A program made the translations under genes and the position numbers. Source: Methanobacteriota archaeon (GTDB lineage Archaea; Thermoplasmatota; SW-10-69-26; JACQPN01). Taken from it: a stretch of 64,000 bases of DNA. Location of the stretch: the NCBI GenBank assembly GCA_016207515.1, contig JACQPN010000002.1:12350-76349 (forward strand), in the 5' to 3' direction. Shown here one piece after another: positions 38,833 through 54,998 of the stretch. A model generated the notes under the pieces. It was not told the DNA's origin. It worked only from the letters and a program-made list of their open reading frames with translations, and did not search any database. Numbering within the stretch: the first letter of the stretch is position 1; each line of letters opens with the position of its first letter.

Positions 38833-40073
38833 TGCACTTGCTGGGCGAGGCCTGGTTCTCGTGGGTCTCCTTCGTGGTCGCCGATGTGATCCTCGTTGCG
38901 CTCGGCATTCTCGTGCTCCGGCTCAAGCCGCGGACGCCGGCGAGCTGGGCTCTTGGCGTCTTCGCGACCGCCTGGGGAGCCAACTTCATCGTGGCGCTCG
39001 CGCCGTTCTTCTTCGACATCGACCTTTCGAGGCCAGGGTATCTGGAGGGTCAAACCCTTCTTCGCGTCGTCCTGAGAGCCATCTCCGCCGGCGGCCTCGT
39101 GGCGATGATGCTGACCTTCCCGCGGGCCCTGCCGCGAGCCGAGCGCCGCGCCCTCGTCGGGCCCGCGATCTTTGGCGCGGTCTGGGCGTTTGTGCTCATC
39201 GCCCCGCGATGGGCGATCCCACCGTGGGCGCTCCTCGACGTGGGAACCGCGATTGTCGGGTACGGGTTCGTCTGGGCGTACCTGCTGCTTCTCACGTCCC
39301 GGTGGCGGCGCGCGACCGACGCGGGCGAACGGCACCAGATCGTGCTCACGTTCGTGGCGCTCGCGCTGGGCGTCAGTTTCCAAGCGGGACAATACGCGGG
39401 AGGCGCGAGCCAGCTCGCTTCGTCAGGCGTCCTGACGTTCGTGACCCAGCTTGCCCCACCCGTCTGGCTTGCGGTCGTCTGGCTCCGGGGGGCCCACGGG
39501 GCGCAAGCGCGCGTCGAGCGGAATCTCGCCATCCTCCCGCTCGCGCTCGCGTTCGTGGGATTCCTCGTGGGGAGGAGGAGCCCCTACGATCCCTCGGGCC
39601 TCCTCGCCCTTGGCACCGTCGCGATCCTCACCTATGCGATCGTGCGTCACCAAGTCCTCGGCATCGACGTCAAGCTCCGCTTCGCCATCAGCAAGTCCAC
39701 GGTCGCGGCCGTGTTCATCGCGGTTTTCTTCGTCGCGAGCGAAGCGGCGCAGCAGTTCTTCGGCGAAGCGTTCCAATCCAATTACGTGGGCATCCTGGCG
39801 GCGGGTGCTCTCGTGTTCGCGATCGCGCCGTTGTCGCGCCTCGCGGACCGGATCGCGGAGAAGGCGGTGCCGGTTCCCACGGCACCTCCGGAGCCCACGG
39901 GGCTACCTTTTCGCGAAAAGCTCTACCGGGATGCAGCGCGCTACGCGCTCCGAGACGGCACGATGACACGCATCGAGGAGTTGCATCTTGCCCAGCTTGC
40001 CGCCGAGCTCGGGCTGCGCGCGGATCGGGCGGTCGAACTGCGCCATGAGATCGAGGAGGAGATGAGGGCGTGA
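38832..40073 (+). CDS. array member C: polytopic membrane protein with conserved C-terminal module
   Basis: ATG overlapping B2 stop (ATGA); module ISKSTVAAVFIAVFFVASEAAQQFFGEAFQSNYVGILAAGALVFAIAPLSRLADRIAEKAVP plus tail YRDAARYALRDGTMTRIEELHLAQLAAELGL. Confidence 0.8.
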   Translation: MHLLGEAWFSWVSFVVADVILVALGILVLRLKPRTPASWALGVFATAWGANFIVALAPFFFDIDLSRPGYLEGQTLLRVVLRAISAGGLVAMMLTFPRALPRAERRALVGPAIFGAVWAFVLIAPRWAIPPWALLDVGTAIVGYGFVWAYLLLLTSRWRRATDAGERHQIVLTFVALALGVSFQAGQYAGGASQLASSGVLTFVTQLAPPVWLAVVWLRGAHGAQARVERNLAILPLALAFVGFLVGRRSPYDPSGLLALGTVAILTYAIVRHQVLGIDVKLRFAISKSTVAAVFIAVFFVASEAAQQFFGEAFQSNYVGILAAGALVFAIAPLSRLADRIAEKAVPVPTAPPEPTGLPFREKLYRDAARYALRDGTMTRIEELHLAQLAAELGLRADRAVELRHEIEEEMRA

Positions 40074-41595: not shown

Positions 41596-42932
41596 ATCTG
41601 CTCTCCGGGGCCCTCGTGCCCGCCTACGCCGGGACCCTCACAAACCTGCTCCTCGCTGCGGCTCTCCTCAGGTGGGGCCCAAGGCGGGGGGCATCGGTCT
41701 GGTTCGTCGCTTTCCTGGTCGCGGACGGCGTTGGCCTGGCGCTCAACGCAATCGAGAACCACGTCTTCCAGACCTTCGACGCCACCACGTCGAGCGCGTC
41801 AGAGATCGAAGCGACACGGGCGCTACTCACGGGGCTCGATGTCGCCGTGGGCGTTCTGCTCGTCTCTGCCCTGTTCCTGATCGTTTTCGCAACGATCGAA
41901 TTCTTGGGGCGCGCCCCGCGATGGCTGGCACCGGCGGTCCTCGCGACCGCGAGCACGGCGGCGCTCTGGGGGATTCTCGACCCTCCCGCAGGATACTTCC
42001 TCCGCGAGGGCCGCCTCATACACGTCGTCGACTCCTCCTATTTCTTCCTCACAACGCTTCCTGCCTTCGCAAGCCAAGGCGTCGCGCTTCTCGTGCTCGC
42101 GCGGCGACCAGCCGGCGATCCCAGCTCACCCACGCGCCGCTCTCACCTCCTCCTTGGCATCGGTCTCCTCGTGTATCCTCTTCATCGTGGCGCCTATCTT
42201 GTGGTGGACTACTTCCTCGACCCGCTGTCTGTAGCGCGAGTAACTGCCTCCAATCGGTTCGTCCTGCTCGGCGAGCTGGCGACCGCCGTGTTCCTCCTCT
42301 TCGCCGCCTACCTTGCCATCATGCGGCTTGCACGCACACATCCCGAGCACGCGGGCCTCGTTCTCGCGGCCGGCGTGGGCCTCGGCTCCGGGATACTGCG
42401 TGCCCTGACGGATGCGCTCCCGTCCTACTTCTATTTCGGCGTCGCGAACCTCGTGCTGCCGCTCGTCGCTACGTACGCGCTGCTCCGGCACAACCTGTTC
42501 GGTCTCGATTTCAGGGTTCGGTGGGCGATCTCGAAGTCCACGATCGCGGCGGTCTTCATCGCCGTCTTCTTTGTGGCGAGCGAGGCGGCGCAGCAGTTCT
42601 TCGGCGAAGCGTTCCAATCCAATTACGTTGGCATCCTGGCGGCGGGTGCTCTTGTGTTCGCGATCGCACCGTTGTCGCGGCTTGCGGACCGGCTCGCTGA
42701 GAAGGCGGTGCCGGTGGCCGCCGGAACCGGGCCCGTCGAGGCGAGCGCGTCCGACACGCGCGGAGCCGACGCGTACCGACACGCGGTGCGCTTGGCGCTT
42801 CGCGACCGGCGCCTCACGCCCGGTGAAGAGGTCGCTTTGGCGCACGTCGCGCAGGGTCTCGGACTCACGCCTGTTGAGGCCATTCGGCTCCGCCACGAGG
42901 TCGAGGCGGAGACCGGGAAGGAGGTGCGCTAA
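41592..42932 (+). CDS. array member E2: polytopic membrane protein with conserved C-terminal module
   Basis: In-frame part of ORF 41316..42932 starting at GTG 41592; C-terminal module identical over long stretches to C and D. Confidence 0.75.
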   Translation: MNLLSGALVPAYAGTLTNLLLAAALLRWGPRRGASVWFVAFLVADGVGLALNAIENHVFQTFDATTSSASEIEATRALLTGLDVAVGVLLVSALFLIVFATIEFLGRAPRWLAPAVLATASTAALWGILDPPAGYFLREGRLIHVVDSSYFFLTTLPAFASQGVALLVLARRPAGDPSSPTRRSHLLLGIGLLVYPLHRGAYLVVDYFLDPLSVARVTASNRFVLLGELATAVFLLFAAYLAIMRLARTHPEHAGLVLAAGVGLGSGILRALTDALPSYFYFGVANLVLPLVATYALLRHNLFGLDFRVRWAISKSTIAAVFIAVFFVASEAAQQFFGEAFQSNYVGILAAGALVFAIAPLSRLADRLAEKAVPVAAGTGPVEASASDTRGADAYRHAVRLALRDRRLTPGEEVALAHVAQGLGLTPVEAIRLRHEVEAETGKEVR

Positions 42933-42990: not shown

Positions 42991-44166
42991 ATGGGTGTCG
43001 TGATCCTCGCACTCGGCAGGAGCCGACGGGAGAACGTGGCGCTGGGGGCCCTCGCCCTATCGTTTGGTGCGATGTTCGTGTCGAACAACCTCGCCTTCGA
43101 GCCCGGAGCTGACGCGCTCCCAGTCATGTGGGGCTCGGCCCTCTTGGCCGTTGTCGCCGGTCTCGCCGCCCTCGCCGTGGCATGGACGACAGAGGGCCTC
43201 CCACGCGCGCCGGTCGTCGTCGCGGGAGCCGTCGGGGCCGCTTGGCAGCTCCTCGTGCCGATGGGACCCGTGTACGCGGCGGTGAACGCGGCGCGCTTCC
43301 CGCAGCCCGTGGCGGCGGCGTTCTTCACGAACGTCGCGTCTCCGCTTTTCGTCATCGCGTTGGCGCTCCTCATCGGGCTCCTTGCCGCCTTCGCCCTCGC
43401 CCCGAGGAGACTCGCGATGGGTGATCCGCGCCGTCCGCCGCGAAGGCTTCTGATGTACGCGTTCGGCCTCTACCTCGCGTACTCGATGGGCGCCAACGTG
43501 GTCGCGTACGACTTGAGCGGCTATGTCGTACTCTTCCCACTCGTCGTCGCACTTGCGGTGGCGCTGCTCGTCGCTGGCGCCGCGCCGGGCGGGCTGCCCG
43601 AACGTGACGGGGCGCTCGTCATCCTCGCGGCGGGCCTCGCCGGCGCGATCTCCGAGACCTGGGGAGGGGCGACCACGTCGGGCCTTGGCGTCGGCATCCT
43701 CCGCATCGTCGGCGTTGCGGTCCTTGCGTACTCCGTGTTCCGCTACGACCTCCTCGGCGTGCCGCTCCCGCGTATCGCCGAACACCGCGGCAGCCTTGCG
43801 ATGGCCTCGCTGGCCTCGCTCTTCATCGTCGCGCAGATCGCGGAGAACTACCTCAGCGCGGAGTACGGCCTCTTGATGGGTGGCGTGGTGGCGGGCGCGC
43901 TCCTCTTCGCCGCGAACCCCATACAACGGGCGATGGAGAGGACGACCGCTCCGGTCGGGCCCCATCGTGCTCCGGCGACGGTCGAGCGCCGCGAGGAGAG
44001 CGAGCGTGCCTACAGGGTGGCGTTACGCCGCTTCCTCGTTGACGGGGATATCAGCGCGGAGGAGGAGATCGCCTTGGCCCACCTTGCGGATGAGGCGGGC
44101 GTGACGGTGCGGCGAACAATCGAACTCCGCCACGAGGTCGAGCGCGAGTTGGGGAGGCGGGGCTGA
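42991..44166 (+). CDS. array member F: polytopic membrane protein with conserved C-terminal module (start uncertain)
   Basis: First in-frame ATG after E2 stop is 42991; homology to G begins at CTG 42934 (LALDARFVITAGSGALWGL vs VLDLSAASLVRAGSGVLFL), so the start may be non-canonical or lost. Confidence 0.7.
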   Translation: MGVVILALGRSRRENVALGALALSFGAMFVSNNLAFEPGADALPVMWGSALLAVVAGLAALAVAWTTEGLPRAPVVVAGAVGAAWQLLVPMGPVYAAVNAARFPQPVAAAFFTNVASPLFVIALALLIGLLAAFALAPRRLAMGDPRRPPRRLLMYAFGLYLAYSMGANVVAYDLSGYVVLFPLVVALAVALLVAGAAPGGLPERDGALVILAAGLAGAISETWGGATTSGLGVGILRIVGVAVLAYSVFRYDLLGVPLPRIAEHRGSLAMASLASLFIVAQIAENYLSAEYGLLMGGVVAGALLFAANPIQRAMERTTAPVGPHRAPATVERREESERAYRVALRRFLVDGDISAEEEIALAHLADEAGVTVRRTIELRHEVERELGRRG

Positions 44167-45417
44167 TTGGTTCTCGACCTCAGCGCGGCTTCGCTCGTTC
44201 GCGCGGGAAGCGGTGTACTGTTTCTCCTTGTCGGGCTCGCGATGATCGGCCTCGGTCGTCGGAAGCGCGAGAACCTGGCCGTCGGTGTGGCGGCAGTCGC
44301 GTTCGGCCTTGCTTTCGTCGTCAACAACATCGATCCGTCAGGCTCGGTCGTCGCGCAGATCGTGCTTGCCCTGGTTTGCGCCGCCGCGCTCGCCGTGCCG
44401 GTGGCTTCCTCGAAAAGGGCCGCCGCGTTCACGGCATTTGTCGCGCTGTCGCTTGTCGGACTCCTCGCGCTATCGACGCCAGCCCAAGTCGTCGGCTTCG
44501 CGGGAGTTCCCATCCCACCTGAGGCTTGGACGGGTTATTACCAGTCCCTCTTCGGCTACCTCCCAATGGTGGCGGCGGTCCTTGGGTACGCTCTGATGCA
44601 GGCGCTGCGATGCAGTAGCGAGTCGGACGAGTGCAGCGCCCGGGCATCAGCGCTTCTTGTCGCCGGGTGGGGGATCTATCCTGCCTTCCTCACGGGCGGA
44701 CAGGTTGCCATCGTTGCGACGCTTCGGTTCGGGCTGACGCCTCCCGGGCTCGCGACCACGGGCGTCCTTGCCCTCGCCGTCGCGGTCATCGTGGCGATGC
44801 TCCTCTACTCGACGCGCCGCACGAAGAGAGCCCGTAATGTCGCGTGGCTTCTCCTGGCATGCGAACTGGCCGGGATGGTGGATCAGGGCTTGGGCGGGAC
44901 CTATGTCACTCCATGGGTCGGTGTCGCGCGCTCGATTGGTGCGGTGATGATTGCGGTGGCGGTCTTTCGCGAGGCGGCACTAGGTTTTGAACTCGGTCTT
45001 CCGACGATCCGCCGCGGAACGACGGCGACGGTGGTTCTCGCGGGCTTCTTCATCGTCGCCCAGATCGCGCAGAACTTCTTGAGTGATGAGTACGGGCTGG
45101 TGATGGGGGGCGTGGTCGCGGGAGCGCTGCTTTTCGCGGCGAACCCCATCCAGCGCGCGATCGAGAGGGACTGGGCCGACCGTGCGCAAGCCACCACATC
45201 AGCGGCGTTTCCCATGGCAAGGGGGGCGCCGGCCGCCGCGACGGCGAGCAAGGAGGAGGCGTACCGCAACGCGCTGCGTATCGCGCTACGTGACCGCGTC
45301 CTCACGGAAGACGAGGAAGTCCAACTCGCGCATCTTTCCGACGAATTGGGCCTCACGCATAGGCGGGCAAGAGAGATCCGAAACGAGGTGCAGCGCGAGG
45401 CCGGGGCGCGGGAGTAA
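44167..45417 (+). CDS. array member G: polytopic membrane protein with conserved C-terminal module
   Basis: TTG right after F stop; C-terminal module FFIVAQIAQNFLSDEYGLVMGGVVAGALLFAANPIQRAIER plus tail EEAYRNALRIALRDRVLTEDEEVQLAHLSDELGL. Confidence 0.8.
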   Translation: MVLDLSAASLVRAGSGVLFLLVGLAMIGLGRRKRENLAVGVAAVAFGLAFVVNNIDPSGSVVAQIVLALVCAAALAVPVASSKRAAAFTAFVALSLVGLLALSTPAQVVGFAGVPIPPEAWTGYYQSLFGYLPMVAAVLGYALMQALRCSSESDECSARASALLVAGWGIYPAFLTGGQVAIVATLRFGLTPPGLATTGVLALAVAVIVAMLLYSTRRTKRARNVAWLLLACELAGMVDQGLGGTYVTPWVGVARSIGAVMIAVAVFREAALGFELGLPTIRRGTTATVVLAGFFIVAQIAQNFLSDEYGLVMGGVVAGALLFAANPIQRAIERDWADRAQATTSAAFPMARGAPAAATASKEEAYRNALRIALRDRVLTEDEEVQLAHLSDELGLTHRRAREIRNEVQREAGARE

Positions 45418-46232: not shown

Positions 46233-46293
46233 ATCACGCGCGTGGCCATTGTCGGTCAGAAGGTCGGTTTCTGTCCCCGACTCCTGTGTCGCC

Positions 46294-47175
46294 TTACTTG
46301 ATTTCGGCTGGCCTCAGGCTGTAGCATCGCCCCGGTCCCATGTCGTAGTGCACGAGTTGCGCCGCGCCGCCGCTTTCCCCAAGTATCGACCCGGACTCGA
46401 CCTGGTAGTTCGCAAACGCGGATAGGCCGATGAAGGGGGCCAGCGTGAGATCGAGCGCACCGGTGACGGCGCGCTTGGAAACGGTGAAGAGTCGGTACGA
46501 GACCTCCTCTCCCCCAGTGCTGTTCGCAACAGGGCCGCGGAAAGAGAACGTGAGGTCGCCGAAAGCCGCCCTTGCATCGATGGACTCGACGCCGGGCGCA
46601 GTTACCGAGGCTTGGGAGGTCGTTGTGACCTTGTCGACGGATAGATTTCGCGCGGCGTAGGCCTTGACGAGGTCGGCCGAGGCCACACCGTGGCGCAGGA
46701 ACACGCGGTAATTATTGATTTCGGGGACGCGGTACGAATCGGGTGGATCCGCGTAGACATAGACGAGCGATTCCTGGTGGTTCTTGATCTCTCCATCGGG
46801 GGTGAGCGCCCGCGAACACCGGGTGACGACGAGTGCGCCCTGGGCCGTCCCCGGCGCTCCGCCCGCGAAGGGGACTGGCTCGAAGCCGGGCGGGAGGAAC
46901 GCGGCGACGCGTTCGGCCTGGAAGGCGACGGCCGCCACCAGGAGCGTGCACCCTTCTCCAGTCATGTTCCAAACGACGGCTGGAGCGAGGCTAGCGTTGC
47001 CGTCCTCCATCTCGTCACCAGCGGTCGGCGTCCCCGGGTCTGTCGAAGTGTCGCCCGCCGTGCCATCGCCGCCGGGAGTTCCGTCACCGCGCGGGGATTC
47101 GGGCTCACCCAAGCATCCGGCGAATGGCGCCAGGAGCATGATCGTGCTGATAAAGAGACTGAAGACCCGGTCCAT
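46294..47175 (-). CDS. secreted lipoprotein, hypothetical
   Basis: ORF 46294..47199; signal peptide plus lipobox (LLAPFAGC), Gly/Thr/Asp-rich linker. Confidence 0.6.
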   Translation of the reverse strand: MDRVFSLFISTIMLLAPFAGCLGEPESPRGDGTPGGDGTAGDTSTDPGTPTAGDEMEDGNASLAPAVVWNMTGEGCTLLVAAVAFQAERVAAFLPPGFEPVPFAGGAPGTAQGALVVTRCSRALTPDGEIKNHQESLVYVYADPPDSYRVPEINNYRVFLRHGVASADLVKAYAARNLSVDKVTTTSQASVTAPGVESIDARAAFGDLTFSFRGPVANSTGGEEVSYRLFTVSKRAVTGALDLTLAPFIGLSAFANYQVESGSILGESGGAAQLVHYDMGPGRCYSLRPAEIK

Positions 47176-47244
47176 TTCTTGGTTTCCCTTGTGCCTCACG
47201 AAGACCGCCGAATCTTATCTCGTTTATGGCAAGCGAGTATCGGG

Positions 47245-48621
47245 TCAGGCCGTCGTCAACCGCGCGCCCGTGATGACGTGGCCATTCCCGTGTCTGGCGT
47301 TCCACACGGCAAAAGCGCCTTGACCTTCGGCAAGTGCCACGAGCCCCATGTAGTCGCCCGTCGTTCGAGTCGTGCCTTCGTGCGCGTCGAGCGTGATGCG
47401 CTCCGACATGTTGCCATTCGCCGCGATGGCTACGGCCCGAAGGGTGGCGCTTAGTGTGGTCCCTTCGCCCATCGGGAACCAGTAGGTGACGATTGCGCTC
47501 CCGTCGCGCGTGGCCGCGAGAGCGGGCGATGTCCGGGCGGCGGCCTGCGTCGACTCGATTTCGATGGCTACGCTCCATGTTCGCCCGCCGTCGTCCGACC
47601 AGCGCAGCGTCACGATCTGCGGCACGTCGGGCTGTCCGTTCGTTTCGCCCGTCATCGGGTAGGCCATGTAGATTCGCTCGCCGGTCGGCCCCGGCCCGAT
47701 GGTCTTTGCGAGGACCGGGAATTTCGTCGTGCTGTCGATCGACGTGTTCGTCGTCCATGATGCGCCCCTGTCCGTGGAGACGGCTAAATGGATCTTAGCA
47801 TCGTCCGTCTCTCGGTACGAAACGACGCATGATCCGTCGTCGAGCACGAGCGGGAACGCCCCGGAGGAGACGCCCCGGTAGATTTCGCTCGGCGGCGACC
47901 ATGTCCGGCCGCCGTCTGTGGAACTCGCCGCATAGGTCTGCGTACAACCCTCGAAGCAAGCGGACGTCCGTTGCTCGTTGCGGTTCCACGCCATGAGGAC
48001 GGTACCGTCCGCGCCCGAGGCTAGCCATTGTTTGTCGAATTCGATGCGGCCTGCACCGTAGGCGGGCGAAACCGCGTCCGAGCCTTGCTGCAGGATGCTC
48101 GCCTCGGGGAAGCTTTGACCACCGTCCGAAGAGCGCCAAAGCGCGATCGAGGCTGCGGTCGAGGCGATGCCCCGCCCGTCCACGGATTCAAAATTGAAAA
48201 CGAGGGCGGTGTACAGGACGGTCCCATCGGCTAGGATGAGGACGGCCGGATCGTCCGCGTGGTCGTATGCGACGAGAGGATGGGTCGGCGGTGCGTCGCG
48301 TCCCATGGGAAGCCGCATCGTCGCCCAAGTGGCGCCACCGTCCTTGCTCACGTGCGCGAGCGGCCACGAGTACGGCTTGCCTTGCGCGTCGAACCCCTGG
48401 TCCATGCTGGCAGCGACGATCGTTTTCCCGTCCCGGGGGTCGGCCGCGACCGCGGGTTCCCAACGCGTGCCCTTGTCGATGACGACGGCGCACGGCGAGG
48501 GGCAGGAGAGGACAGGGCGGTGGTCTGGTTCCGGCTGCTGTTTCCGTGTTTGCTCGGCGCATCCGCTCACGACGACCAGTATGAGGACCACGAGTGTGAT
48601 CGGGGCACGCGGGCTCTGCAT
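47245..48621 (-). CDS. secreted lipoprotein with BNR/Asp-box repeats (sialidase-like beta-propeller), paralog of 28893..30878
   Basis: ORF 47245..48804; start ATG 48621 before signal/lipobox (VVVSGC); Asp-boxes SKDGGATW, SSDGGQSF, STDGGRTW, STDRGASW, SDDGGRTW. Confidence 0.8.
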   Translation of the reverse strand: MQSPRAPITLVVLILVVVSGCAEQTRKQQPEPDHRPVLSCPSPCAVVIDKGTRWEPAVAADPRDGKTIVAASMDQGFDAQGKPYSWPLAHVSKDGGATWATMRLPMGRDAPPTHPLVAYDHADDPAVLILADGTVLYTALVFNFESVDGRGIASTAASIALWRSSDGGQSFPEASILQQGSDAVSPAYGAGRIEFDKQWLASGADGTVLMAWNRNEQRTSACFEGCTQTYAASSTDGGRTWSPPSEIYRGVSSGAFPLVLDDGSCVVSYRETDDAKIHLAVSTDRGASWTTNTSIDSTTKFPVLAKTIGPGPTGERIYMAYPMTGETNGQPDVPQIVTLRWSDDGGRTWSVAIEIESTQAAARTSPALAATRDGSAIVTYWFPMGEGTTLSATLRAVAIAANGNMSERITLDAHEGTTRTTGDYMGLVALAEGQGAFAVWNARHGNGHVITGARLTTA

Positions 48622-48925
48622 CAATCCGGGGAGGCGTAGACAGCCCCCCTCCTTATCGGTTCCGCCAACGACGGTCACAACAGGCCCGCCGGGATAGGGG
48701 CCACCGACGATTGCCACCCTCTTCCACGAGCCGGTCGCGCGGGGCGAGCGCGAGACGCGACGAAGGTCACCCGCCCCGAGACCTCTCGACCTCGTTCCCA
48801 GCACCGCAGTGGTCGACAGCTCACAAGCGCTTCCTCTCGATTGCCCGGCTTCGCCTCGCAGCGTGTGAACTCCGGCGGTAGCGCTTTAACGGATTGTTCT
48901 ACTACTGAGCTCAAGGATCCGGGGG

Positions 48926-49282
48926 ATGGTCGTGACCGAACATCGAATCTTCTCCATGCCGTTTGCGCAAGTGTATCCGCTTTACATCCAGAAGGCCGAA
49001 CGCAAGGGACGCACGAAAGCGGAAGTCGACGAGATCATCGGCTGGCTTACGGGCTACACGTCGAAGGGCCTTCAGCGACAGCTTGACGCCCAAGCGGACT
49101 TCCGGACATTCTTCGCGGAAGCGCCGAAGATGAATCCGAACGCGTCCCGGATCAAGGGCGTGGTCTGTGGCGTGCGCGTCGAGATGATCAAAGATCCTCT
49201 TATGCGAAAGATCCGATGCCTGGACAAACTGGTCGACGAACTCGCCCGCGGCAAGGCCATGGACAAGATCCTGCGAAAGTAG
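48926..49282 (+). CDS. DUF2200-family protein
   Basis: 118 aa; [37 protein letters not shown] matches the DUF2200 signature. Confidence 0.7.
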
Positions 49283-49589
49283 TTCGAGGCGTCCACGGGT
49301 TGCCGGTAGATGCGACGGGGCTTCGGCCGGTCTCTTGGCGGAGTAGTGCATTTCCACGCGGTCGGGCACGAGGTTTCGGTAAACCTGCCCGCCATTCGAG
49401 TGCCCCGCTCGCGCGTCCCGGCTCGCCATCCAAGGTGCGTGCGGTCAGTCGCCAAGCACTCGAGCGGCATGCGCAAGCAAGGCAAGACCACCAAACGCTT
49501 AAATAGAAGAGCTGCTTTACTGCGCCTTACTCGCGAGGCTTCCTATCTTAGGAAACCCCGCGTACCAAGAAGAATTTGGTGATTCAAAC

Positions 49590-51218
49590 ATGATGGCAGG
49601 AGGACAGCAGGTAATTATCCTAAAGGAAGGCACCCGCCGCGATCGCGGAAAGGGCGCACAGTCGAACAACATCCTCGCAGCTAAGGCTGTTGCAGAAGCG
49701 GTCCGCTCGACACTTGGGCCCAAGGGCATGGACAAGATGCTCGTCGATTCGATGGGCGACGTCGTCATCACGAACGACGGAGCGACGATCCTCAAAGAGA
49801 TCGACGTCGAGCACCCCACGGCGAAGATGATCGTGGAGGTCTCAAAGACCCAGGACGAGCAGTGCGGCGACGGCACGACCACAGCGGTCGTCCTCGCTGG
49901 TGAACTCCTCAAGCAGGCAGAAGACCTCATCGAGGACGTCCACCCGACGCTCATCACGGCCGGCTACAGGCTCGCAGCCGACAAGGCCATCAAGGTCTTG
50001 AACGACATCGCGAAGCCCGTGACGCTCTCCGACACCGCCACCCTAGTGCGCATCGCCCGCACCTCGATGGCGTCGAAGTCGACGAGCACCTACTCCGAGC
50101 ACCTCTCGACGATCGTCGTTGACGCGGTCACCGCGGTCGCAGAGAAGACCGGCAGCGAATGGAAGGTCGACAAGGACAACATCAAGATCGAGAAGAAACA
50201 CGGTGGCTCCATCGAAGACACCGAGCTCATCGAGGGCATAGTCCTCGACAAGGAGAGGGCCAACAGCAGGATGCCCTCGACCGTCGCGAGCCCGAAGATC
50301 GCCCTCATAAACGCCGCCCTCGAGATCAAGAAGACCGAGGTCGACGCGAAGATCGAGATAACGGACCCGAACCAGCTCCAGGCGTTCCTCGACGAGGAAG
50401 AGCACACCATCAAGAAGCTCGTCGACTCCGTCGTCGCGAGCAAGGCCAACGTCGTCTTCTGCCAGAAAGGTATAGACGACCTGGCGCTTCATTACCTCGC
50501 GAAGGCCGGCATCTACGCCGTCAAGTCCGTCAGCGAGAAGGACATGAAGAAGCTCGCAAGAGCGACTGGCGCGAAGATCGTCAACAACCTCAAGGACCTC
50601 ACCTCGAAGGACCTCGGCACCGCCGGGAACGTCGAGGAAAGGAAGATCGCCGATGAGGAGATGACCTTCGTGACGGGCTGCAAGGGTGCGAAGGCCGTGA
50701 CCATCCTGGTCCGCGGCGGCACCGAGCACGTCATCGACGAAGTCGAGAGGAACCTCGACGACGCCATCGGTGTCGTGCGCTCGGCCGTCGAGGACGGAAA
50801 GATCGTCGCCGGTGCAGGTGCCCCGGAGATCGAGGTCGCCCTCGCGCTTCGGAAGTACGCAAGCTCGGTCGGGGGCCGCGAACAGCTCGCCATCGAGCGC
50901 TTCGCATCCGCACTCGAGATAATCCCGAGGACACTCGCGGAGAACGCCGGTCTTGACGCGATAAACGCGCTCGTGGACCTTCGTCAGGCCCACGAGAAGA
51001 AGCAGACCTACGCCGGTCTCGATTTAGACACGGGCAAGGTCGTCGACGCGTGGAAGGCCAACATCCTTGAGCCTCTCCGTGTCAAGACCCAGGCCATCCA
51101 GTCCGCAACCGAGGTCGCGACGATGATCCTAAGGATCGACGACGTGATCGCGGCCAAGGCGTTCACCCCCCCGCCCCCGGGCGCGGGCGGCGAACACGGC
51201 GGGATGGGCGATTACTGA
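49590..51218 (+). CDS. ths: thermosome subunit (group II chaperonin)
   Basis: 542 aa; [34 protein letters not shown]-terminal GGM-like tail. Confidence 0.95.
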
Positions 51219-51822
51219 GCATCGACCCAGGTTCCAAAACCAGGCGGGTTCCGGATGAGGGGCCCGCCATTATTCTTTTTTCTCCCATGATTGATGCCTG
51301 TGAGTGCCCTGAGTGTAGGTCGTGCGGGGGGCGCCCTGAAATAGCCCTGACGTCAATTCATTGTGATTCGCATTCAGAGCCGTTCGTCCGCTTTTCAGGT
51401 CAAGTCCTTCACTTTTGCAAGCCGTGCTTTGCGAATCATCTGACGGCCGTGCAATCACGCTCGTCGATTTGTTGTGCCAACGATTTGGTGCACCTCTCGT
51501 CGCACCGATTCGTCAACGCGAGCGGCGTTGAATATTTTCTCCGCTGACGCTGGTCCGTCTTCGAAAACGTGGCGGAACCCGCTGAAGGATTCGGGTTTTC
51601 CACCTTGGTGGTATGGGAACCTGGGGTGCGGAGTATCGGCATAGAATAGTAACAAGCACGAGGCCCGATCCGTCGCCGTTATTATGTGAAGGTCACCGGC
51701 ATTTCCAGAGCCGAAGGACGGCCATGACGTTTCAAGGGGTGAGGGGTGCAAACGATTTGGTGCCAAAAGGCGCCGTTACAAGCCTTTATGGCTCCCGTCC
51801 AGGTTCAGGTCTCGGTGACCGA

Positions 51823-52149
51823 ATGAACCACTACGTTTTGCTAATGACGCTCGTTGTAGTATGCGCTGGATTTTTGTCGGGGTGCGTGAGCCCAATCAGG
51901 GCTGGTGACCAATTGCCGCTTGGCGGAGGAATGAGTGCCGCGACAATTCCGCAGCCAAATTGTGGCGGCGCTCGATTTGCGGTTGTGGAAACCTTCGAGT
52001 TGGATCATCCAGGGTATCCAATTGAGAGTGTTAACAGTACGCTCAATGGAATGGCCGACAGGGGCTTCGTCCTGATAGCGATGACCGAGGTCGCGGGGGG
52101 GGATGGCTCAGGTCACCATTACTCCATGGTTTTCCAGTGTGCAAGATAG
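51823..52149 (+). CDS. hypothetical small lipoprotein
   Basis: In frame of ORF 51613..52149; MNHYVLLMTLVVVCAGFLSGC signal/lipobox; lies in lower-G+C segment. Confidence 0.35.
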   Translation: MNHYVLLMTLVVVCAGFLSGCVSPIRAGDQLPLGGGMSAATIPQPNCGGARFAVVETFELDHPGYPIESVNSTLNGMADRGFVLIAMTEVAGGDGSGHHYSMVFQCAR

Positions 52150-52300
52150 GCTGCGAGGAACGGCATCTTGCAAGGCCCCAACGGCAACTGGGGTCCTCCA
52201 GCGACACCTTAGCCCCACCGACGCCGTCCAACTCGTCTACCAACTCTACGGCCTCACGGAAGATGAAATCAAGGTCGTAGAGGCCGCCTCATCGCGATGA
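52103..52300 (+). pseudogene. remnant: 3' end of a restriction-modification-type DNA methyltransferase gene
   Basis: C-terminal peptide ...PTDAVQLVYQLYGLTEDEIKVVEAA* resembles the conserved C-terminus (LVYELYGLTEEEI.IVE) of N6-adenine MTases of type IIG RM / BREX PglX type; no upstream catalytic domain present. Confidence 0.4.
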
Positions 52301-52801
52301 GCGGTTCCTGATCGGCGCCCCGCCCACCGTGTACCGTTCGGCATCTCTCGTCTTCGTGACCTTCTTGAGGGTGAACTTCCCGAGGTTGGGAGTGTACGCC
52401 ATCCTGAAGCTCACGTCGAAGAGATGAAACAAGGGTTCTCGACCGATCAACGGGAGCGATGGAAAGCCGGGTTGGTTCAATGGGATTTGGAAGGGCGCTT
52501 CGAATGACTCGCGTCGCCCCGTTTGTTCGAGGGTCACGGTGAGGCGTGCGACACCTATTTCGAAGCTGTTCGCGACCGACATGGCCCGATCGACGGGTAG
52601 TTTTTCCACGTCAATGCCGAGGAGGCCCTCCGCCATTTCTCGGGGGATCATGGAAAAATCCGCTCCCGAATCAAGGAGGAGGTCGGTGAGGAACCTACGA
52701 TTGCCAAGCGCGAGGCGGCATGCCATGACCGGTCTCTGAATGACTCCACCTCGGCCGATGGGGTACGCCTTGAAGGCGTACGAAAAATTCACATCGGCCA
52801 A
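52289..52801 (-). CDS. retropepsin-like aspartic protease (clan AA)
   Basis: 170 aa; DSGAD catalytic motif (LLLDSGADFSMIP). Confidence 0.7.
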   Translation of the reverse strand: MADVNFSYAFKAYPIGRGGVIQRPVMACRLALGNRRFLTDLLLDSGADFSMIPREMAEGLLGIDVEKLPVDRAMSVANSFEIGVARLTVTLEQTGRRESFEAPFQIPLNQPGFPSLPLIGREPLFHLFDVSFRMAYTPNLGKFTLKKVTKTRDAERYTVGGAPIRNRSSR

Positions 52802-52804
52802 AGG

Positions 52805-53014
52805 TTACACCGTGATGTAGCCTTCAGGGACCATCACGACGTAGGGTTCCTTGCCTGGCGCTTTTTCTTGAGTCGCCCGAATGACGTCCTGGAGACTCTT
52901 GTCGACGGCGATAATCTCCTGGTCGACTACGGACACCCACTTTCCAACGAATTGACGGAGGTTCTGTTTCGCGAACCATTCGCTGTTCTTTTCGAGGGAA
53001 CTCTCGTCTTCCAT
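52805..53014 (-). CDS. small DUF5678-like protein paired with the retropepsin-like protease
   Basis: 69 aa; FVGKWVSVVDQEIIAVDKSLQDVI; directly upstream of and co-oriented with the protease. Confidence 0.5.
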   Translation of the reverse strand: MEDESSLEKNSEWFAKQNLRQFVGKWVSVVDQEIIAVDKSLQDVIRATQEKAPGKEPYVVMVPEGYITV

Positions 53015-53188
53015 CGGTGCGTCTCCTGGTGGTGCCCATGGCGGCGACCGTTATATAAGTCTGTTCCCGGAGCCGTTAAACGTTTCCGCGAAGCGCCTTC
53101 CGGGGGCGTCGCGTGCAAGAGAAGGAAAAAAATCGGCGGGTCCGCACGGGAACCCGCCACCAAACTTTTTCTGGCGCCCTTTTCGGTC

Positions 53189-53485
53189 TTAGACGCCGCC
53201 CCGTTTCGTGGTCGTGCGCGCTTCGATGAAGTCGCCGACCCAGACGCCGGCGATGAACAGTATCGTGAGGATCACGATGCTGACTATCGTTCCAGCGACG
53301 TCGTTCGCGAAACCTAGCGGGCTCGTGGAGGTCGTGTAACCGAGCACCGCGAACAGGACGCCGACGACGGCCCCGATGAGGAGGCCCATCTTCAGCATGT
53401 TCGTCTTGTTCTGCGTTCCCGGTGTCCACCAACCGTAGATGAGGCCGCCTAAGAATATCAGGAGGCCCCATGGGAGGTCTGCCAT
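53189..53485 (-). CDS. small membrane protein (3 TM)
   Basis: 98 aa, three hydrophobic helices. Confidence 0.5.
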   Translation of the reverse strand: MADLPWGLLIFLGGLIYGWWTPGTQNKTNMLKMGLLIGAVVGVLFAVLGYTTSTSPLGFANDVAGTIVSIVILTILFIAGVWVGDFIEARTTTKRGGV

Positions 53486-53709
53486 CAGATCACCACAGGC
53501 CGTTCGGCTCCCATGTGTAATAACGTTGGCCCTCCATACGGCGAAAGGCTGCAGCCCCTCCCGGCTTGATGCCGTTCACGATGACTTCAATCCGGTGATG
53601 CGACGGTCGGCCTTCGTCGATTGTCGTGTTCGGTTTCTTTGTAACGAGTGGTTGGATGCCTCGTCGCCCCTGTCTCCGTCGCGTTCTCCCTCGATGGCCA
53701 GGCAGGCCG

Positions 53710-54537
53710 TCACGACGAAAACGCGACGCCCGTTCCTTCGAACGCCTCCCTGAGTTTTTCCGCCATCTTGCGATACGTGGAACCATCCGTGACGAGCGCC
53801 GCCGTATTCTCGAACTTCGTGCCCCGCGTGCGCGCCGTGAGGACGGGAACCACATTCGGGAGATAATTCCAACCCGAGAAGCAGACCCGCCTCACGCCGG
53901 CCTCCACCATCGCATGTGCAATGTCCGTCTCATCCAACCCGCCGGTCAGCGGATAGGCCGGCATCAGGTTCGCGTAAGTCTCGACACCTGCGTCGGCAAG
54001 GAAGCGAAGCGCCTTGAGTCGCCCCTCGATCGGCGGGGCCCGGGGCTCGATCACGGCGCGTGCCTCGTCGTCAAGTGTCGGCACGCTGAGCCCGACCGCG
54101 ATGTCCGAGAACCTCCGGAAGAGATCGGTGTCGCGACGTACGAGAGGGCTACGTGTGAGTACGCGGAGGGGCCAGTGGTTGCGAAGGAGGATTTCGAGGC
54201 AGCGCCGTGTCATGCGCGCTTCGCTTTCAATCGGCTGGTAGGGGTCCGTCGCGGACGATAGGAAGACCTGGTCCTTGTCGAGCGTCTTGAGTTCTCGCGC
54301 AAGGACGGTCGGCAGGTTGCGTTTCACCACGACGTAGGAACCCCATTTCGGTCGCTCGAGGTGTGCCACGTCCGGCACGTAGCAGTAAGTGCACGCGTGA
54401 GAGCACCCCAGGTACGGGTTCAACGCCCAATGGTCGTACGGGTGGGGCATCCGGTTGAGGGCGCGCTTCACTTCCACCTCGCGCACCTCCGTCGAGCCGA
54501 ATTCGGCCGGCGTGACGAGTTCGTCCCGCGCCATCAT
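53710..54537 (-). CDS. radical SAM domain protein (spore-photoproduct-lyase/DNA-photolyase-like family)
   Basis: ORF 53710..54651; CxxxCxxC cluster (CSHACTYC); start uncertain (ATG 54537 chosen). Confidence 0.75.
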   Translation of the reverse strand: MMARDELVTPAEFGSTEVREVEVKRALNRMPHPYDHWALNPYLGCSHACTYCYVPDVAHLERPKWGSYVVVKRNLPTVLARELKTLDKDQVFLSSATDPYQPIESEARMTRRCLEILLRNHWPLRVLTRSPLVRRDTDLFRRFSDIAVGLSVPTLDDEARAVIEPRAPPIEGRLKALRFLADAGVETYANLMPAYPLTGGLDETDIAHAMVEAGVRRVCFSGWNYLPNVVPVLTARTRGTKFENTAALVTDGSTYRKMAEKLREAFEGTGVAFSS

Positions 54538-54998
54538 GGCCTGGCAGAACGCCTCGATGGAAGTCTGGGAAGGCCGATGGGCGCGTCCGAGCACGCTGTG
54601 AAGGGAATCATCCACTACGCGAAGTCCAGCGGAGGCGGGCACACGGGACACGAAGTCACTGGGGAAGAAGTGTCCACGCTTGGGGTGCCCGAAGCTGCAT
54701 CAAAGGGGGCAGGAGGGCGGCGGCCGTTTGGCGAACTGGGCCGCCGCCCATCCGTTCAAAGTTACGCTGTTGCCGATCCCCCCGAGGAGGTTTTCTGAAT
54801 CTTCGCCACGGCAGATGTGACCAAGGCACGCCCCGTCGGATGAAGAGGCGAAGCGCGTGGACCTGCTGCCGCAGGGGAAAGGCTACCTTTCAAGAGCGCG
54901 CCACCCACGCCGAAGGGCGCCCCTGATGCCTTCTGAGGCCCAGCAAAGGTTAATAAGGGGTTCAGGATTAACCGGGCATGCCCGCCGCGGTGCTCCTT

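What the first reader, a model, noticed from the sequence alone, without database searches (positions are those of the whole stretch)
51240..52300. Lower-G+C islet carrying the 3' remnant of a restriction-modification/BREX-type methyltransferase gene
The ~1 kb after the thermosome gene is visibly less GC-rich than its surroundings and lacks long convincing ORFs. It ends in a short frame whose C-terminus (..LVYQLYGLTEDEIKVVEAA*) matches the conserved C-terminal tail of N6-adenine methyltransferases of type IIG RM / BREX PglX type, with no catalytic domain upstream. A 13-nt direct repeat (aacgatttggtgc) occurs at ~51480 and ~51751. This looks like the scar of a decayed defence or mobile element.
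Basis: partly seen in the sequence, partly recalled or inferred. Interest (0 to 1): 0.5.

Follow-up and report, generated by a model that had tools for sequence, protein, structure and literature searches.

The report
Leftover tail of a dead methyltransferase gene
About 70 to 180 bases at the right edge of a 1.07 kb gene-free spacer are the broken-off 3' end of a restriction-modification DNA methyltransferase gene, an ordinary piece of genomic debris in an uncultured Thermoplasmatota-like archaeon.

Summary
Window 51240-52300 is 55.9% G+C against 63.0% overall, the lowest window of that length in the 64 kb. It has no ORF with a native coding signal and none with homologues. The frame ending at 52300 carries the conserved C-terminal tail of Eco57I-family (type IIG / type II gamma) N6-adenine methyltransferases. 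A profile built from five intact archaeal enzymes hits only this frame in the whole window (E = 5e-7), at profile positions 830-851 of 852. PADLOC type IIG models match it at their last residues. BREX PglX models do not. No catalytic, specificity or nuclease domain is detectable anywhere in the window.

Two relatives (thermosome 77-78% identical) have the thermosome gene followed within 8-14 nt by rpoK. Here 3.76 kb lies between them, so the islet sits in a lineage-specific insert.

The low G+C matches other non-coding spacers and does not prove foreign origin. The 13-nt direct repeat is real but near chance (nominal P about 0.01). No transposase, integrase, tRNA or second copy was found.

The same family shows frameshifted pseudogenes and one tail-only remnant in other archaeal loci I fetched. 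Verdict: an ordinary, non-functional pseudogene fragment of low interest.

The parts
52229..52300 (+). Core of the methyltransferase remnant: the conserved tail (Q)LVYQLYGLTEDEIKVVEAASS, then R and the native-position stop codon TGA at 52298-52300.
   Evidence: A profile of five intact archaeal Eco57I-family enzymes aligns positions 830-851 of 852 to 52229-52294, E = 5e-7. It is the only significant hit in the six-frame window. tblastx of the whole islet against 88 loci hits only this stretch, always at methyltransferase gene ends. Intact comparators end the same way, e.g. L076 ...VVEEAVSR*.
52124..52228 (+). Possible upstream extension of the remnant: a diverged helical linker, with a 2-codon gap relative to intact enzymes at the conserved 'TDxxID' position.
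   Evidence: The PADLOC model aligns from 52196. The L026 fragment aligns from 52166, 44% identity over 45 aa. The Halolamina 1413-aa 'N-6 DNA methylase' aligns from 52124, 38% over 55 aa. The 2-residue gap shows in alignment A1. This part is weak on its own; significance comes mostly from the core.
51287..52123 (.). Stretch with no recognisable gene. It holds the mechanical ORFs cys86 (51287-51547 +) and orf178 (51613-52149 +, with an internal ATG at 51823 giving a lipoprotein-like 108 aa).
   Evidence: GC3 is 0.51-0.59 against 0.76-0.85 in native genes (lipo108's third position is the 0.578 column of that output, because its frame there was one base off). Codon log-odds are -0.25, -0.16 and -0.07 bit per codon against +0.58 to +1.0 for native genes. 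orf178 matches only itself in 5.8 billion clusters and in an exhaustive HMMER search; the single other hit is a spurious repeat-protein match. The ten longest six-frame segments and the listed ORFs have no Pfam, PADLOC or NCBIfam hit. No Rfam family reaches its gathering score. An open frame of 187 codons is not unusual for shuffled islet DNA, P = 0.14.
51219..51286 (+). Thermosome 3' flank: a G+C-rich hairpin at 51243-51268 followed by a T-rich run, which looks like a terminator.
   Evidence: Terminator-like site; sequence. cys86's ATG follows the T-run directly, leaving no room for a promoter.
51474..51491 (+). Direct repeat copy 1 (GTGCCAACGATTTGGTGC).
   Evidence: Nominal P = 0.012 for a 13-nt exact repeat in a region of this size. 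Treated as probably chance.
51746..51763 (+). Direct repeat copy 2 (GTGCAAACGATTTGGTGC).
52289..52300 (.). Perfect 12-nt palindrome TCATCGCGATGA. Read on either strand it encodes Ser-Ser-Arg-stop, so the remnant frame (+) and the convergent protease gene (-) end in the same 12 bases.
   Evidence: Read directly from the sequence and ORF list.
52289..52801 (-). Neighbour gene: a retropepsin-like aspartyl protease (170 aa from a TTG start; called as 145 aa in a public assembly). It converges on the remnant and overlaps it by 12 nt.
   Evidence: Pfam Asp_protease_2, E = 2.8e-5. GC3 0.71 and codon log-odds +0.39, so it is coding but less native-like. Called as a gene in L084.
52805..53014 (-). Neighbour gene: a DUF5678 protein (69 aa), upstream partner of the protease. 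It has a TATA-like TTATATAA at 53051-53058 and an AGGAG before the ATG.
   Evidence: Pfam DUF5678, E = 1.6e-12. Promoter-like elements read from the sequence. GC3 0.69.
51219..54977 (.). Lineage-specific interval between the thermosome gene and rpoK. It contains the islet, the protease/DUF5678 pair, a 98-aa membrane protein, a radical-SAM gene and a 73-aa ORF.
   Evidence: L089 (thermosome 77% identical) and L090 (78%) have HSP20-thermosome-rpoK with gaps of 8 and 14 nt. Downstream order (MCM, DUF424, NMD3, TatD) is shared between the window and L089.

Best explanation
The feature is a dead end of a gene, not a working element. An Eco57I-family N6-adenine DNA methyltransferase gene, either a type IIG restriction-modification fusion or a stand-alone type II enzyme of the same family, once lay in the variable spacer between the thermosome gene and rpoK. 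It most probably arrived there by horizontal transfer. Deletion then removed its nuclease, catalytic and specificity parts.

What survives is the last 22 to about 59 codons plus the original stop codon (52124/52229-52300). This sits at the right edge of a 1.07 kb stretch that no longer encodes anything recognisable. The remnant has no detectable function. Its last 12 bases are kept at least partly because they also supply the final three codons and stop of the convergent aspartyl-protease gene.

Shown: homology of the tail, absence of every other domain, absence of a coding signal, and the 'empty' thermosome-rpoK junction in relatives. Inferred: that the gene was once intact at this site, and that it came by horizontal transfer.
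For: **Tail homology**
- PADLOC REase_MTase_IIG models match at their last residues, best E = 1.3e-4.
- A profile of five intact archaeal enzymes matches at positions 830-851 of 852, E = 5e-7, with the next-best segment of the window at E = 6.
- tblastn and tblastx hits all fall at methyltransferase C-termini.
- Haloarchaeal plasmid hits lie under genes annotated 'N-6 DNA methylase', 'Eco57I restriction-modification methylase domain' and 'TaqI-like C-terminal specificity domain'.
- The stop codon sits at the native distance, as in L076 ...VVEEAVSR*.
- The intact comparators are Eco57I + TaqI_C proteins.

**No other part of the gene**
-.

**No coding signal or homologues in 51287-52123**
-.

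**Lineage-specific insert**
-.

**The process is seen elsewhere**
- In 1.38 Mb of fetched archaeal loci the family appears intact (L057, L067, L076), as frameshifted full-length pseudogenes (L045, L026), and as a tail-only remnant of the last 50 codons (L010).

**The sequence is not an assembly artefact**
- Two Logan assemblies are 100% identical across the junction, L084 and L085.
Against: - Only 22 residues are strongly matched, and the motif is a short, very widespread consensus.
- The closest relatives available have thermosomes only 74-79% identical, and none carries a methyltransferase at this position. An intact ancestor at this site is therefore inferred, not seen.
- The core motif is almost perfectly consensus-like. 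That fits poorly with long neutral decay and could mean a recent deletion, import as a fragment, or some constraint.
- Tail GC3 (0.67) resembles the neighbouring protease/DUF5678 pair (0.69-0.71) more than the ORF-free stretch (0.51-0.59). This fits co-import with that pair.
Confidence: 0.6

Rival explanations
1. The fragment was imported already truncated. A roughly 0.9 kb piece of foreign DNA carried the DUF5678/aspartyl-protease pair together with the 3' end of the methyltransferase gene that converged on it in the donor. No intact restriction-modification system ever existed at this site.
For: GC3 of the tail (0.67), protease (0.71) and DUF5678 (0.69) are similar. They sit between native genes (0.76-0.85) and the ORF-free stretch (0.51-0.59). 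The tail and the protease gene overlap by a shared 12-nt palindrome, so they form one contiguous block. The consensus-like state of the core motif argues against long decay in place.
Against: No homologue of the protease gene was found next to an Eco57I-family gene. The protease has no relatives in JGI metagenomes, in plasmids, or in the first 80 fetched loci, so the donor arrangement is unobserved. This reading also leaves the remaining 0.85 kb of ORF-free DNA unexplained.
Confidence: 0.25
2. The islet is coding after all. orf178, or its internal 108-aa version with a signal peptide and lipobox (..FLSGC), is a young lineage-specific lipoprotein gene. Alternatively the 65-aa tail frame is expressed as a small protein.
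For: Public gene callers call orf178 as a gene. The 108-aa version starts with a hydrophobic h-region followed by LSGC, and a GGTGA lies 5-9 nt before its ATG at 51823 (read).
Against: The only match beyond itself in 5.8 billion clusters and 1.84 billion representatives is one weak, spurious hit to a repeat protein. Codon log-odds are negative (-0.16, and -0.07 for the 108-aa version) and GC3 is 0.58 against 0.76-0.85. The ORF length is not unusual for shuffled DNA, P = 0.14.
Confidence: 0.1
3. The resemblance is a chance or convergent match of a short peptide in non-coding DNA. Nothing methyltransferase-derived is present.
For: Only about 22 residues score strongly. The E-value against the 5.8-billion-sequence database is 0.15-4.5. 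Pfam, NCBIfam and PDB searches return nothing real.
Against: Sixteen consecutive residues (VYQLYGLTEDEIKVVE) are identical to real C-termini. Every independent hit sits at the very end of a methyltransferase, with the stop codon at the matching distance. The profile hit is 7 orders of magnitude better than the next segment of the window.
Confidence: 0.04

Closest known systems
Eco57I-family gamma-class N6-adenine DNA methyltransferases with a TaqI_C specificity domain (Pfam PF07669 + PF12950): type IIG restriction-modification fusions and stand-alone type II enzymes
   Same: The last 22 residues and the stop position match the family's conserved C-terminal tail that follows the TaqI_C domain.
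   Different: Everything that makes the enzyme work is missing: the SAM-binding and NPPY catalytic motifs, the TaqI_C specificity domain, and any nuclease domain. It is a fragment, not a member with activity.
Tail-only and frameshifted pseudogenes of the same family in other archaea (L010 1121-972; L045 3257-5549; L026 19284-16936)
   Same: They show the same kind of decay product. L010 keeps only the last 50 codons with no further similarity upstream, as the window does. L045 is a frameshifted copy at the position where sister Methanoregula genomes have the intact gene, and its tail is its best-conserved DNA segment.
   Different: They come from unrelated lineages and sites. For the window, no sister genome with an intact copy at the same site is available.
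BREX PglX methyltransferase
   Same: PglX has the same broad N6-adenine methyltransferase catalytic fold. PglX models match the catalytic core of the intact comparators.
   Different: No PglX model matches the tail even at E <= 10. Solved structures in the PDB give no real match to a profile of the tail. No PglZ, BrxC or BrxL gene appears among the neighbouring gene calls.

Membership tests
Eco57I-family / type IIG restriction-modification methyltransferase (as a functional gene) | Conserved C-terminal tail (..VYxLYGLTxxEIxxVE..) immediately before the stop codon | tested here: met
   PADLOC models hit at their last residues. The five-enzyme profile hits at positions 830-851 of 852, E = 5e-7. 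Searches agree.
Eco57I-family / type IIG restriction-modification methyltransferase (as a functional gene) | SAM-binding and NPPY-type catalytic methyltransferase domain (Pfam Eco57I / N6_Mtase) | tested here: not met
   No hit in any of the six frames of the islet or the window with full-length queries, a family profile, Pfam or PADLOC.
Eco57I-family / type IIG restriction-modification methyltransferase (as a functional gene) | TaqI_C target-recognition domain upstream of the tail | tested here: not met
   No TaqI_C hit for orf178 or any six-frame segment tested. No profile alignment upstream of position 830.
Eco57I-family / type IIG restriction-modification methyltransferase (as a functional gene) | N-terminal endonuclease domain (type IIG fusions only) | tested here: not met
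   No PADLOC or Pfam hit in the six-frame segments tested. Whether the lost gene was a fusion or a stand-alone methyltransferase cannot be told, because both kinds of PADLOC model (REase_MTase_IIG and MTase_II) reach this tail in intact relatives.
BREX (PglX-type methyltransferase) | Match to PglX models and presence of BREX partner genes (PglZ, BrxC, BrxL) nearby | tested here: not met
   No PglX hit on the tail at E <= 10. PglX models cover only the catalytic core of intact relatives. Precomputed Pfam calls for window 42.6-49.8 kb and 52.3-64 kb show no BREX genes.
Mobile element (IS, MITE or integrative island) | Transposase or integrase, terminal inverted repeats with a target-site duplication, tRNA target, or multiple copies | tested here: not met
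   No tRNA in the window. No transposase or integrase hit in the six-frame segments tested. No second copy of the islet DNA in the window or the fetched loci. The 13-nt direct repeat has no inverted repeats inside it and a nominal P of about 0.01.
Lineage-specific genomic islet (insertion relative to relatives) | Flanking genes adjacent in related genomes | tested here: met
   Thermosome and rpoK are 8 nt apart in L089 and 14 nt apart in L090, against 3,759 nt in the window, with shared downstream gene order in L089. The relatives are distant (77-78% thermosome identity), so timing is unknown.
Lineage-specific genomic islet (insertion relative to relatives) | Composition that can only be explained by foreign origin | tested here: inconclusive
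   The islet is the lowest-G+C kb of the window, but it lies within the range of other presumptive non-coding spacers. The protease/DUF5678 pair has intermediate GC3.

The most novel reading that the evidence does not exclude
The tail is not mere debris. One possibility is that the widely conserved DNA encoding the tail motif serves as a homologous-recombination anchor, through which restriction-modification or specificity cassettes are swapped in and out of this thermosome-rpoK hotspot. The other is that the adjacent ORF-free kilobase has given rise to a new lineage-specific lipoprotein gene (51823-52149). The near-perfect consensus state of the core motif, the recurrence of tail-only fragments in other archaea (L010), and a unitig break 6 nt past the tail's stop codon in one public assembly (L085 ends at 52335, L081 starts at 52306) do not exclude population-level turnover at this junction.
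Probability: 0.05. Interest if true: 0.4.

Novelty: new member of a known kind. Interest (0 to 1): 0.12.

Why it matters
It matters little beyond annotation. It marks the thermosome-rpoK junction of this uncultured Thermoplasmatota-like lineage as a site where foreign DNA has been gained and lost. It also gives one more example that Eco57I-family restriction-modification genes are short-lived in archaeal genomes and tend to leave their conserved 3' tail behind. For annotators, orf178 (called as a gene in public assemblies) and the 65-aa tail frame should not be taken as proteins without further evidence.

Tried and rejected
- **Replication origin** (an MCM gene is nearby, and there are inverted and direct repeats). 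There is no GC-skew turn and no AT-rich unwinding element in the islet. The ten lowest-G+C 60-mers of the window all lie elsewhere.
- **Structured non-coding RNA.** No Rfam family reaches its gathering score in the window. Only sub-threshold noise appears in the islet.
- **MITE or IS.** The 17-nt inverted repeat 51226-51242 / 51609-51625 (15 of 17) and the 13-nt direct repeat are about what chance gives. There are no other copies.
- **The two terminator-like hairpins as element ends.** The hairpins at 51243-51268 (+) and 53159-53134 (-) share GGCGGGTTCC. That 10-mer occurs only there in the window. By my own estimate (no tool run), about 3 exact 10-nt inverted matches are expected by chance in a 2.5 kb region, and the repeat finder lists several such matches of 11-13 nt. 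Treated as coincidence between G+C-rich stems.
- **Weak tblastn hits of methyltransferase catalytic regions to 51706-51954** (E = 8-21). The two queries give mutually inconsistent registers, and the unfiltered profile search finds nothing there. Noise.
- **The P0009 match to orf178** (E = 5.7e-4). P0009 is a repetitive SLH/NHL surface protein, and the pairwise alignment is only 12 of 32 identical. Spurious.
- **Searches for close relatives.** JGI metagenome scans with the protease and the radical-SAM protein found nothing. The GTDB species-representative scan with the thermosome gave at best 65% identity. Exact look-ups of several window proteins failed.
- **Literature.** Searches for the motif, for DUF5678 and for the run accession gave nothing useful.

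Full report
**Source and setting**

The window comes from an uncultured archaeon. Its thermosome (49590-51218, +) matches, at 100% identity over 541 aa, an NCBI protein named 'MAG... [Euryarchaeota archaeon]' on a 337,851-bp contig. The next relatives are Thermoplasmatota MAGs at 74-79% identity. GTDB species representatives reach only 65%. Logan assemblies of SRR12113385 and SRR12113390 reproduce window 42599-64000 at 100% identity. One contig, L084, runs uninterrupted from 49733 to 53270, so the islet is not an assembly artefact.

**Composition**

- Overall G+C is 63.0%. The stretch 51240-52300 is 55.9%, the lowest 1061-nt window of the 64 kb.
- G+C stays lowish (56-59%) to about 53100.
- Native genes have GC3 of 0.76-0.85 with strong codon periodicity. 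Inside 51287-52149 the three codon positions are nearly flat (GC3 0.51-0.59). The lipo108 row of that call was computed one base out of frame; its true third position is the 0.578 column.
- A codon-usage log-odds model trained on 15 neighbouring genes gives these values:

| Feature | Log-odds (bit per codon) |
|---|---|
| Native genes | +0.58 to +1.0 |
| DUF5678 gene | +0.63 |
| Aspartyl-protease gene | +0.39 |
| Tail frame | +0.08 |
| 108-aa lipoprotein-like version | -0.07 |
| orf178 | -0.16 |
| cys86 | -0.25 |

- Other presumptive non-coding spacers in the window range from 0.50 to 0.73 G+C, several near 0.56. Low G+C here is what non-coding DNA looks like in this genome. It does not by itself prove foreign origin.
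- What is unusual is the length. At 1,070 bp (51219-52288), this is the longest stretch in the interior of the window that holds no ORF with a native coding signal.

**ORFs in the islet**

- orf178 (51613-52149) is called as a gene in public assemblies. It matches only itself among 5.8 billion clusters. In an exhaustive HMMER search of 1.84 billion representatives, the one other hit is a repetitive SLH surface protein with a 12-of-32 local match, which I regard as spurious.
- The listed ORFs and the ten longest six-frame segments of 51200-52320 hit nothing in Pfam or PADLOC except the tail frame. The listed ORFs also hit nothing in NCBIfam.
- The longest stop-free run (187 codons) is not unusual for shuffled islet DNA, P = 0.14.
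- cys86 starts right after the thermosome terminator's T-run, with no room for a promoter.
- The internal 108-aa version of orf178 has a signal-peptide and lipobox look (..FLSGC) and a GGTGA before its ATG. I keep it as a low-probability rival.

**The tail**

- The frame 52103-52300 ends ...LSPTDAVQLVYQLYGLTEDEIKVVEAASSR*.
- PADLOC's type IIG REase-MTase models match it at positions 1032-1065 of 1066, 1227-1245 of 1247 and 1124-1147 of 1148, best E = 1.3e-4. No PglX or other model hits it.
- Intact 795-aa archaeal proteins that happened to lie in fetched loci (L076, L057; also L067) are Eco57I + TaqI_C enzymes ending ...IDSLVYGLYGLSADEIAVVEEAVSR*.
- A profile built from five full-length archaeal enzymes was run without filters against every stop-to-stop segment of the window. 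It hits only this frame (E = 5e-7, positions 830-851 of 852, window 52229-52294). The next segment scores E = 6.
- tblastx of the whole islet against 1.38 Mb of loci hits only 52229-52300, always at methyltransferase gene ends.
- tblastn against plasmids finds haloarchaeal genes annotated 'N-6 DNA methylase', 'Eco57I restriction-modification methylase domain-containing protein' and 'TaqI-like C-terminal specificity domain-containing protein', again at their last codons.
- Weaker alignments extend the similarity back to 52196, 52166 or 52124. They show a two-codon gap at a conserved position.
- Nothing else of the gene is detectable in the islet or anywhere in the window.
- PDB sequences gave no real match, so no solved structure shares this tail.

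**The repeat and other small features**

- The 13-mer is exact at 51479 and 51751, and 17 of 18 over the longer match. Under a first-order Markov model the chance of such a repeat in a region this size is about 0.012. About 60 such regions fit in the window, so this is not compelling.
- No inverted repeats lie inside the direct repeats. The islet DNA has no second copy and the window has no tRNA.
- The remnant's last 12 bases, TCATCGCGATGA, are a perfect palindrome. They also encode the last three codons and stop of the convergent aspartyl-protease gene (52289-52801, -). That gene, with DUF5678 (52805-53014, -), forms a two-gene unit with its own TATA-like box and ribosome-binding site.

**Synteny**

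- L089 (thermosome 77% identical) reads HSP20-thermosome-rpoK-Lon-MCM-DUF424-NMD3-x-TatD-..-TBP, with 8 nt between the thermosome gene and rpoK.
- L090 (78%) reads HSP20-thermosome-rpoK with 14 nt between them.
- The window keeps the same order. It has 3.36 kb between HSP20 and the thermosome gene, and 3.76 kb (51219-54977) between the thermosome gene and rpoK.
- The other two relatives (L086/L088 at 79%, L091 at 74%) have different genes downstream and no methyltransferase.
- The islet therefore lies in a lineage-specific, evidently plastic interval. No available relative is close enough to show an intact system at this site.

**How common this is**

In the fetched archaeal loci, 1.38 Mb chosen for their thermosome genes apart from two, the same family occurs in three states:

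- intact: L057, L067 and L076;
- frameshifted full-length pseudogenes: L045, at the position where the sister genomes have the intact gene, and L026;
- a tail-only remnant of the last 50 codons: L010.

Decay of these genes, down to nothing but the tail, is routine.

**Conclusion**

The feature is a non-functional 3' fragment of an Eco57I-family (type IIG / type II) N6-adenine methyltransferase gene. It sits at the edge of a 1.07 kb ORF-free spacer, inside a 3.76 kb lineage-specific insert.

I put 0.6 on decay in place after horizontal acquisition, and 0.25 on import as an already truncated fragment together with the protease/DUF5678 pair, whose GC3 it shares. I put about 0.1 on part of the islet being a real orphan gene, and about 0.04 on chance resemblance. 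BREX is not supported, and no mobile-element hallmark was found. This is an ordinary finding of low interest.

Noticed in passing
window 46233-49589: A second lineage-specific insert. HSP20 and the thermosome gene are adjacent in L086, L088, L089, L090 and L091. Here they are separated by 3.36 kb carrying a 293-aa ORF (-), a BNR/sialidase-like 477-519-aa gene (-) and a DUF2200 gene (+).
   Followed up: partly
window 52306-52335 (L085 end / L081 start): In the Logan assembly of SRR12113385 two unitigs overlap by 30 nt just 6 nt past the tail's stop codon. In SRR12113390 the junction is contiguous. This implies a graph branch there, either a strain variant or a shared k-mer. It could mean population heterogeneity at the junction.
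   Followed up: partly
window 52289-52300: A perfect 12-nt palindrome, TCATCGCGATGA, gives both convergent frames (the methyltransferase remnant on + and the aspartyl protease on -) the same ending, Ser-Ser-Arg-stop.
   Followed up: yes
window 51243-51268 (+) and 53134-53159 (-): Two terminator-like hairpins, each followed by a T-run, bracket the low-G+C 1.9 kb. They share the 10-mer GGCGGGTTCC, which has no other exact copy in the window. Judged coincidental, because 10-nt inverted matches are expected by chance in 2.5 kb.
   Followed up: partly
window 52289-53058 (-): A DUF5678 (69 aa) plus retropepsin-like aspartyl protease (145-170 aa) two-gene unit with its own TATA-like box. GC3 is intermediate (0.69-0.71). 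There is no PADLOC hit and no close relatives in JGI metagenomes or plasmids. Its function is unknown. It could be a small toxin-antitoxin-like or accessory module.
   Followed up: partly
L045 3257-5549; L026 16936-19284; L010 972-1121: Other decaying Eco57I-family methyltransferase genes. L045 (Methanoregulaceae) is frameshifted at the site where L057, L067 and L076 have intact orthologues. L026 (Methanotrichaceae) is fragmented. L010 (Halobacteria MAG) keeps only the last 50 codons.
   Followed up: yes
L023, L024, L030, L042: Homologues of the window's radical-SAM gene (53710-54651, -) lie near the thermosome gene in Methanomassiliicoccales and Thermoplasmata loci. They are upstream of it on the same strand, directly adjacent in L023 and L042. 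In the window the gene is downstream and convergent, which suggests a local rearrangement.
   Followed up: no
window 39758-39874 and 42599-42715; 42991-44166 and 44242-45417: A 117-nt segment is repeated at 94% identity about 2.8 kb apart. Two tandem 391-aa ORFs of the same size, with no Pfam hit, match the same L089 segment and look like paralogues. This lies in the highest-G+C part of the window (66-70%).
   Followed up: no
window 51226-51242 and 51609-51625: A 17-nt inverted repeat (15 of 17) brackets the cys86 ORF. It is roughly what chance gives for a region of this size.
   Followed up: partly
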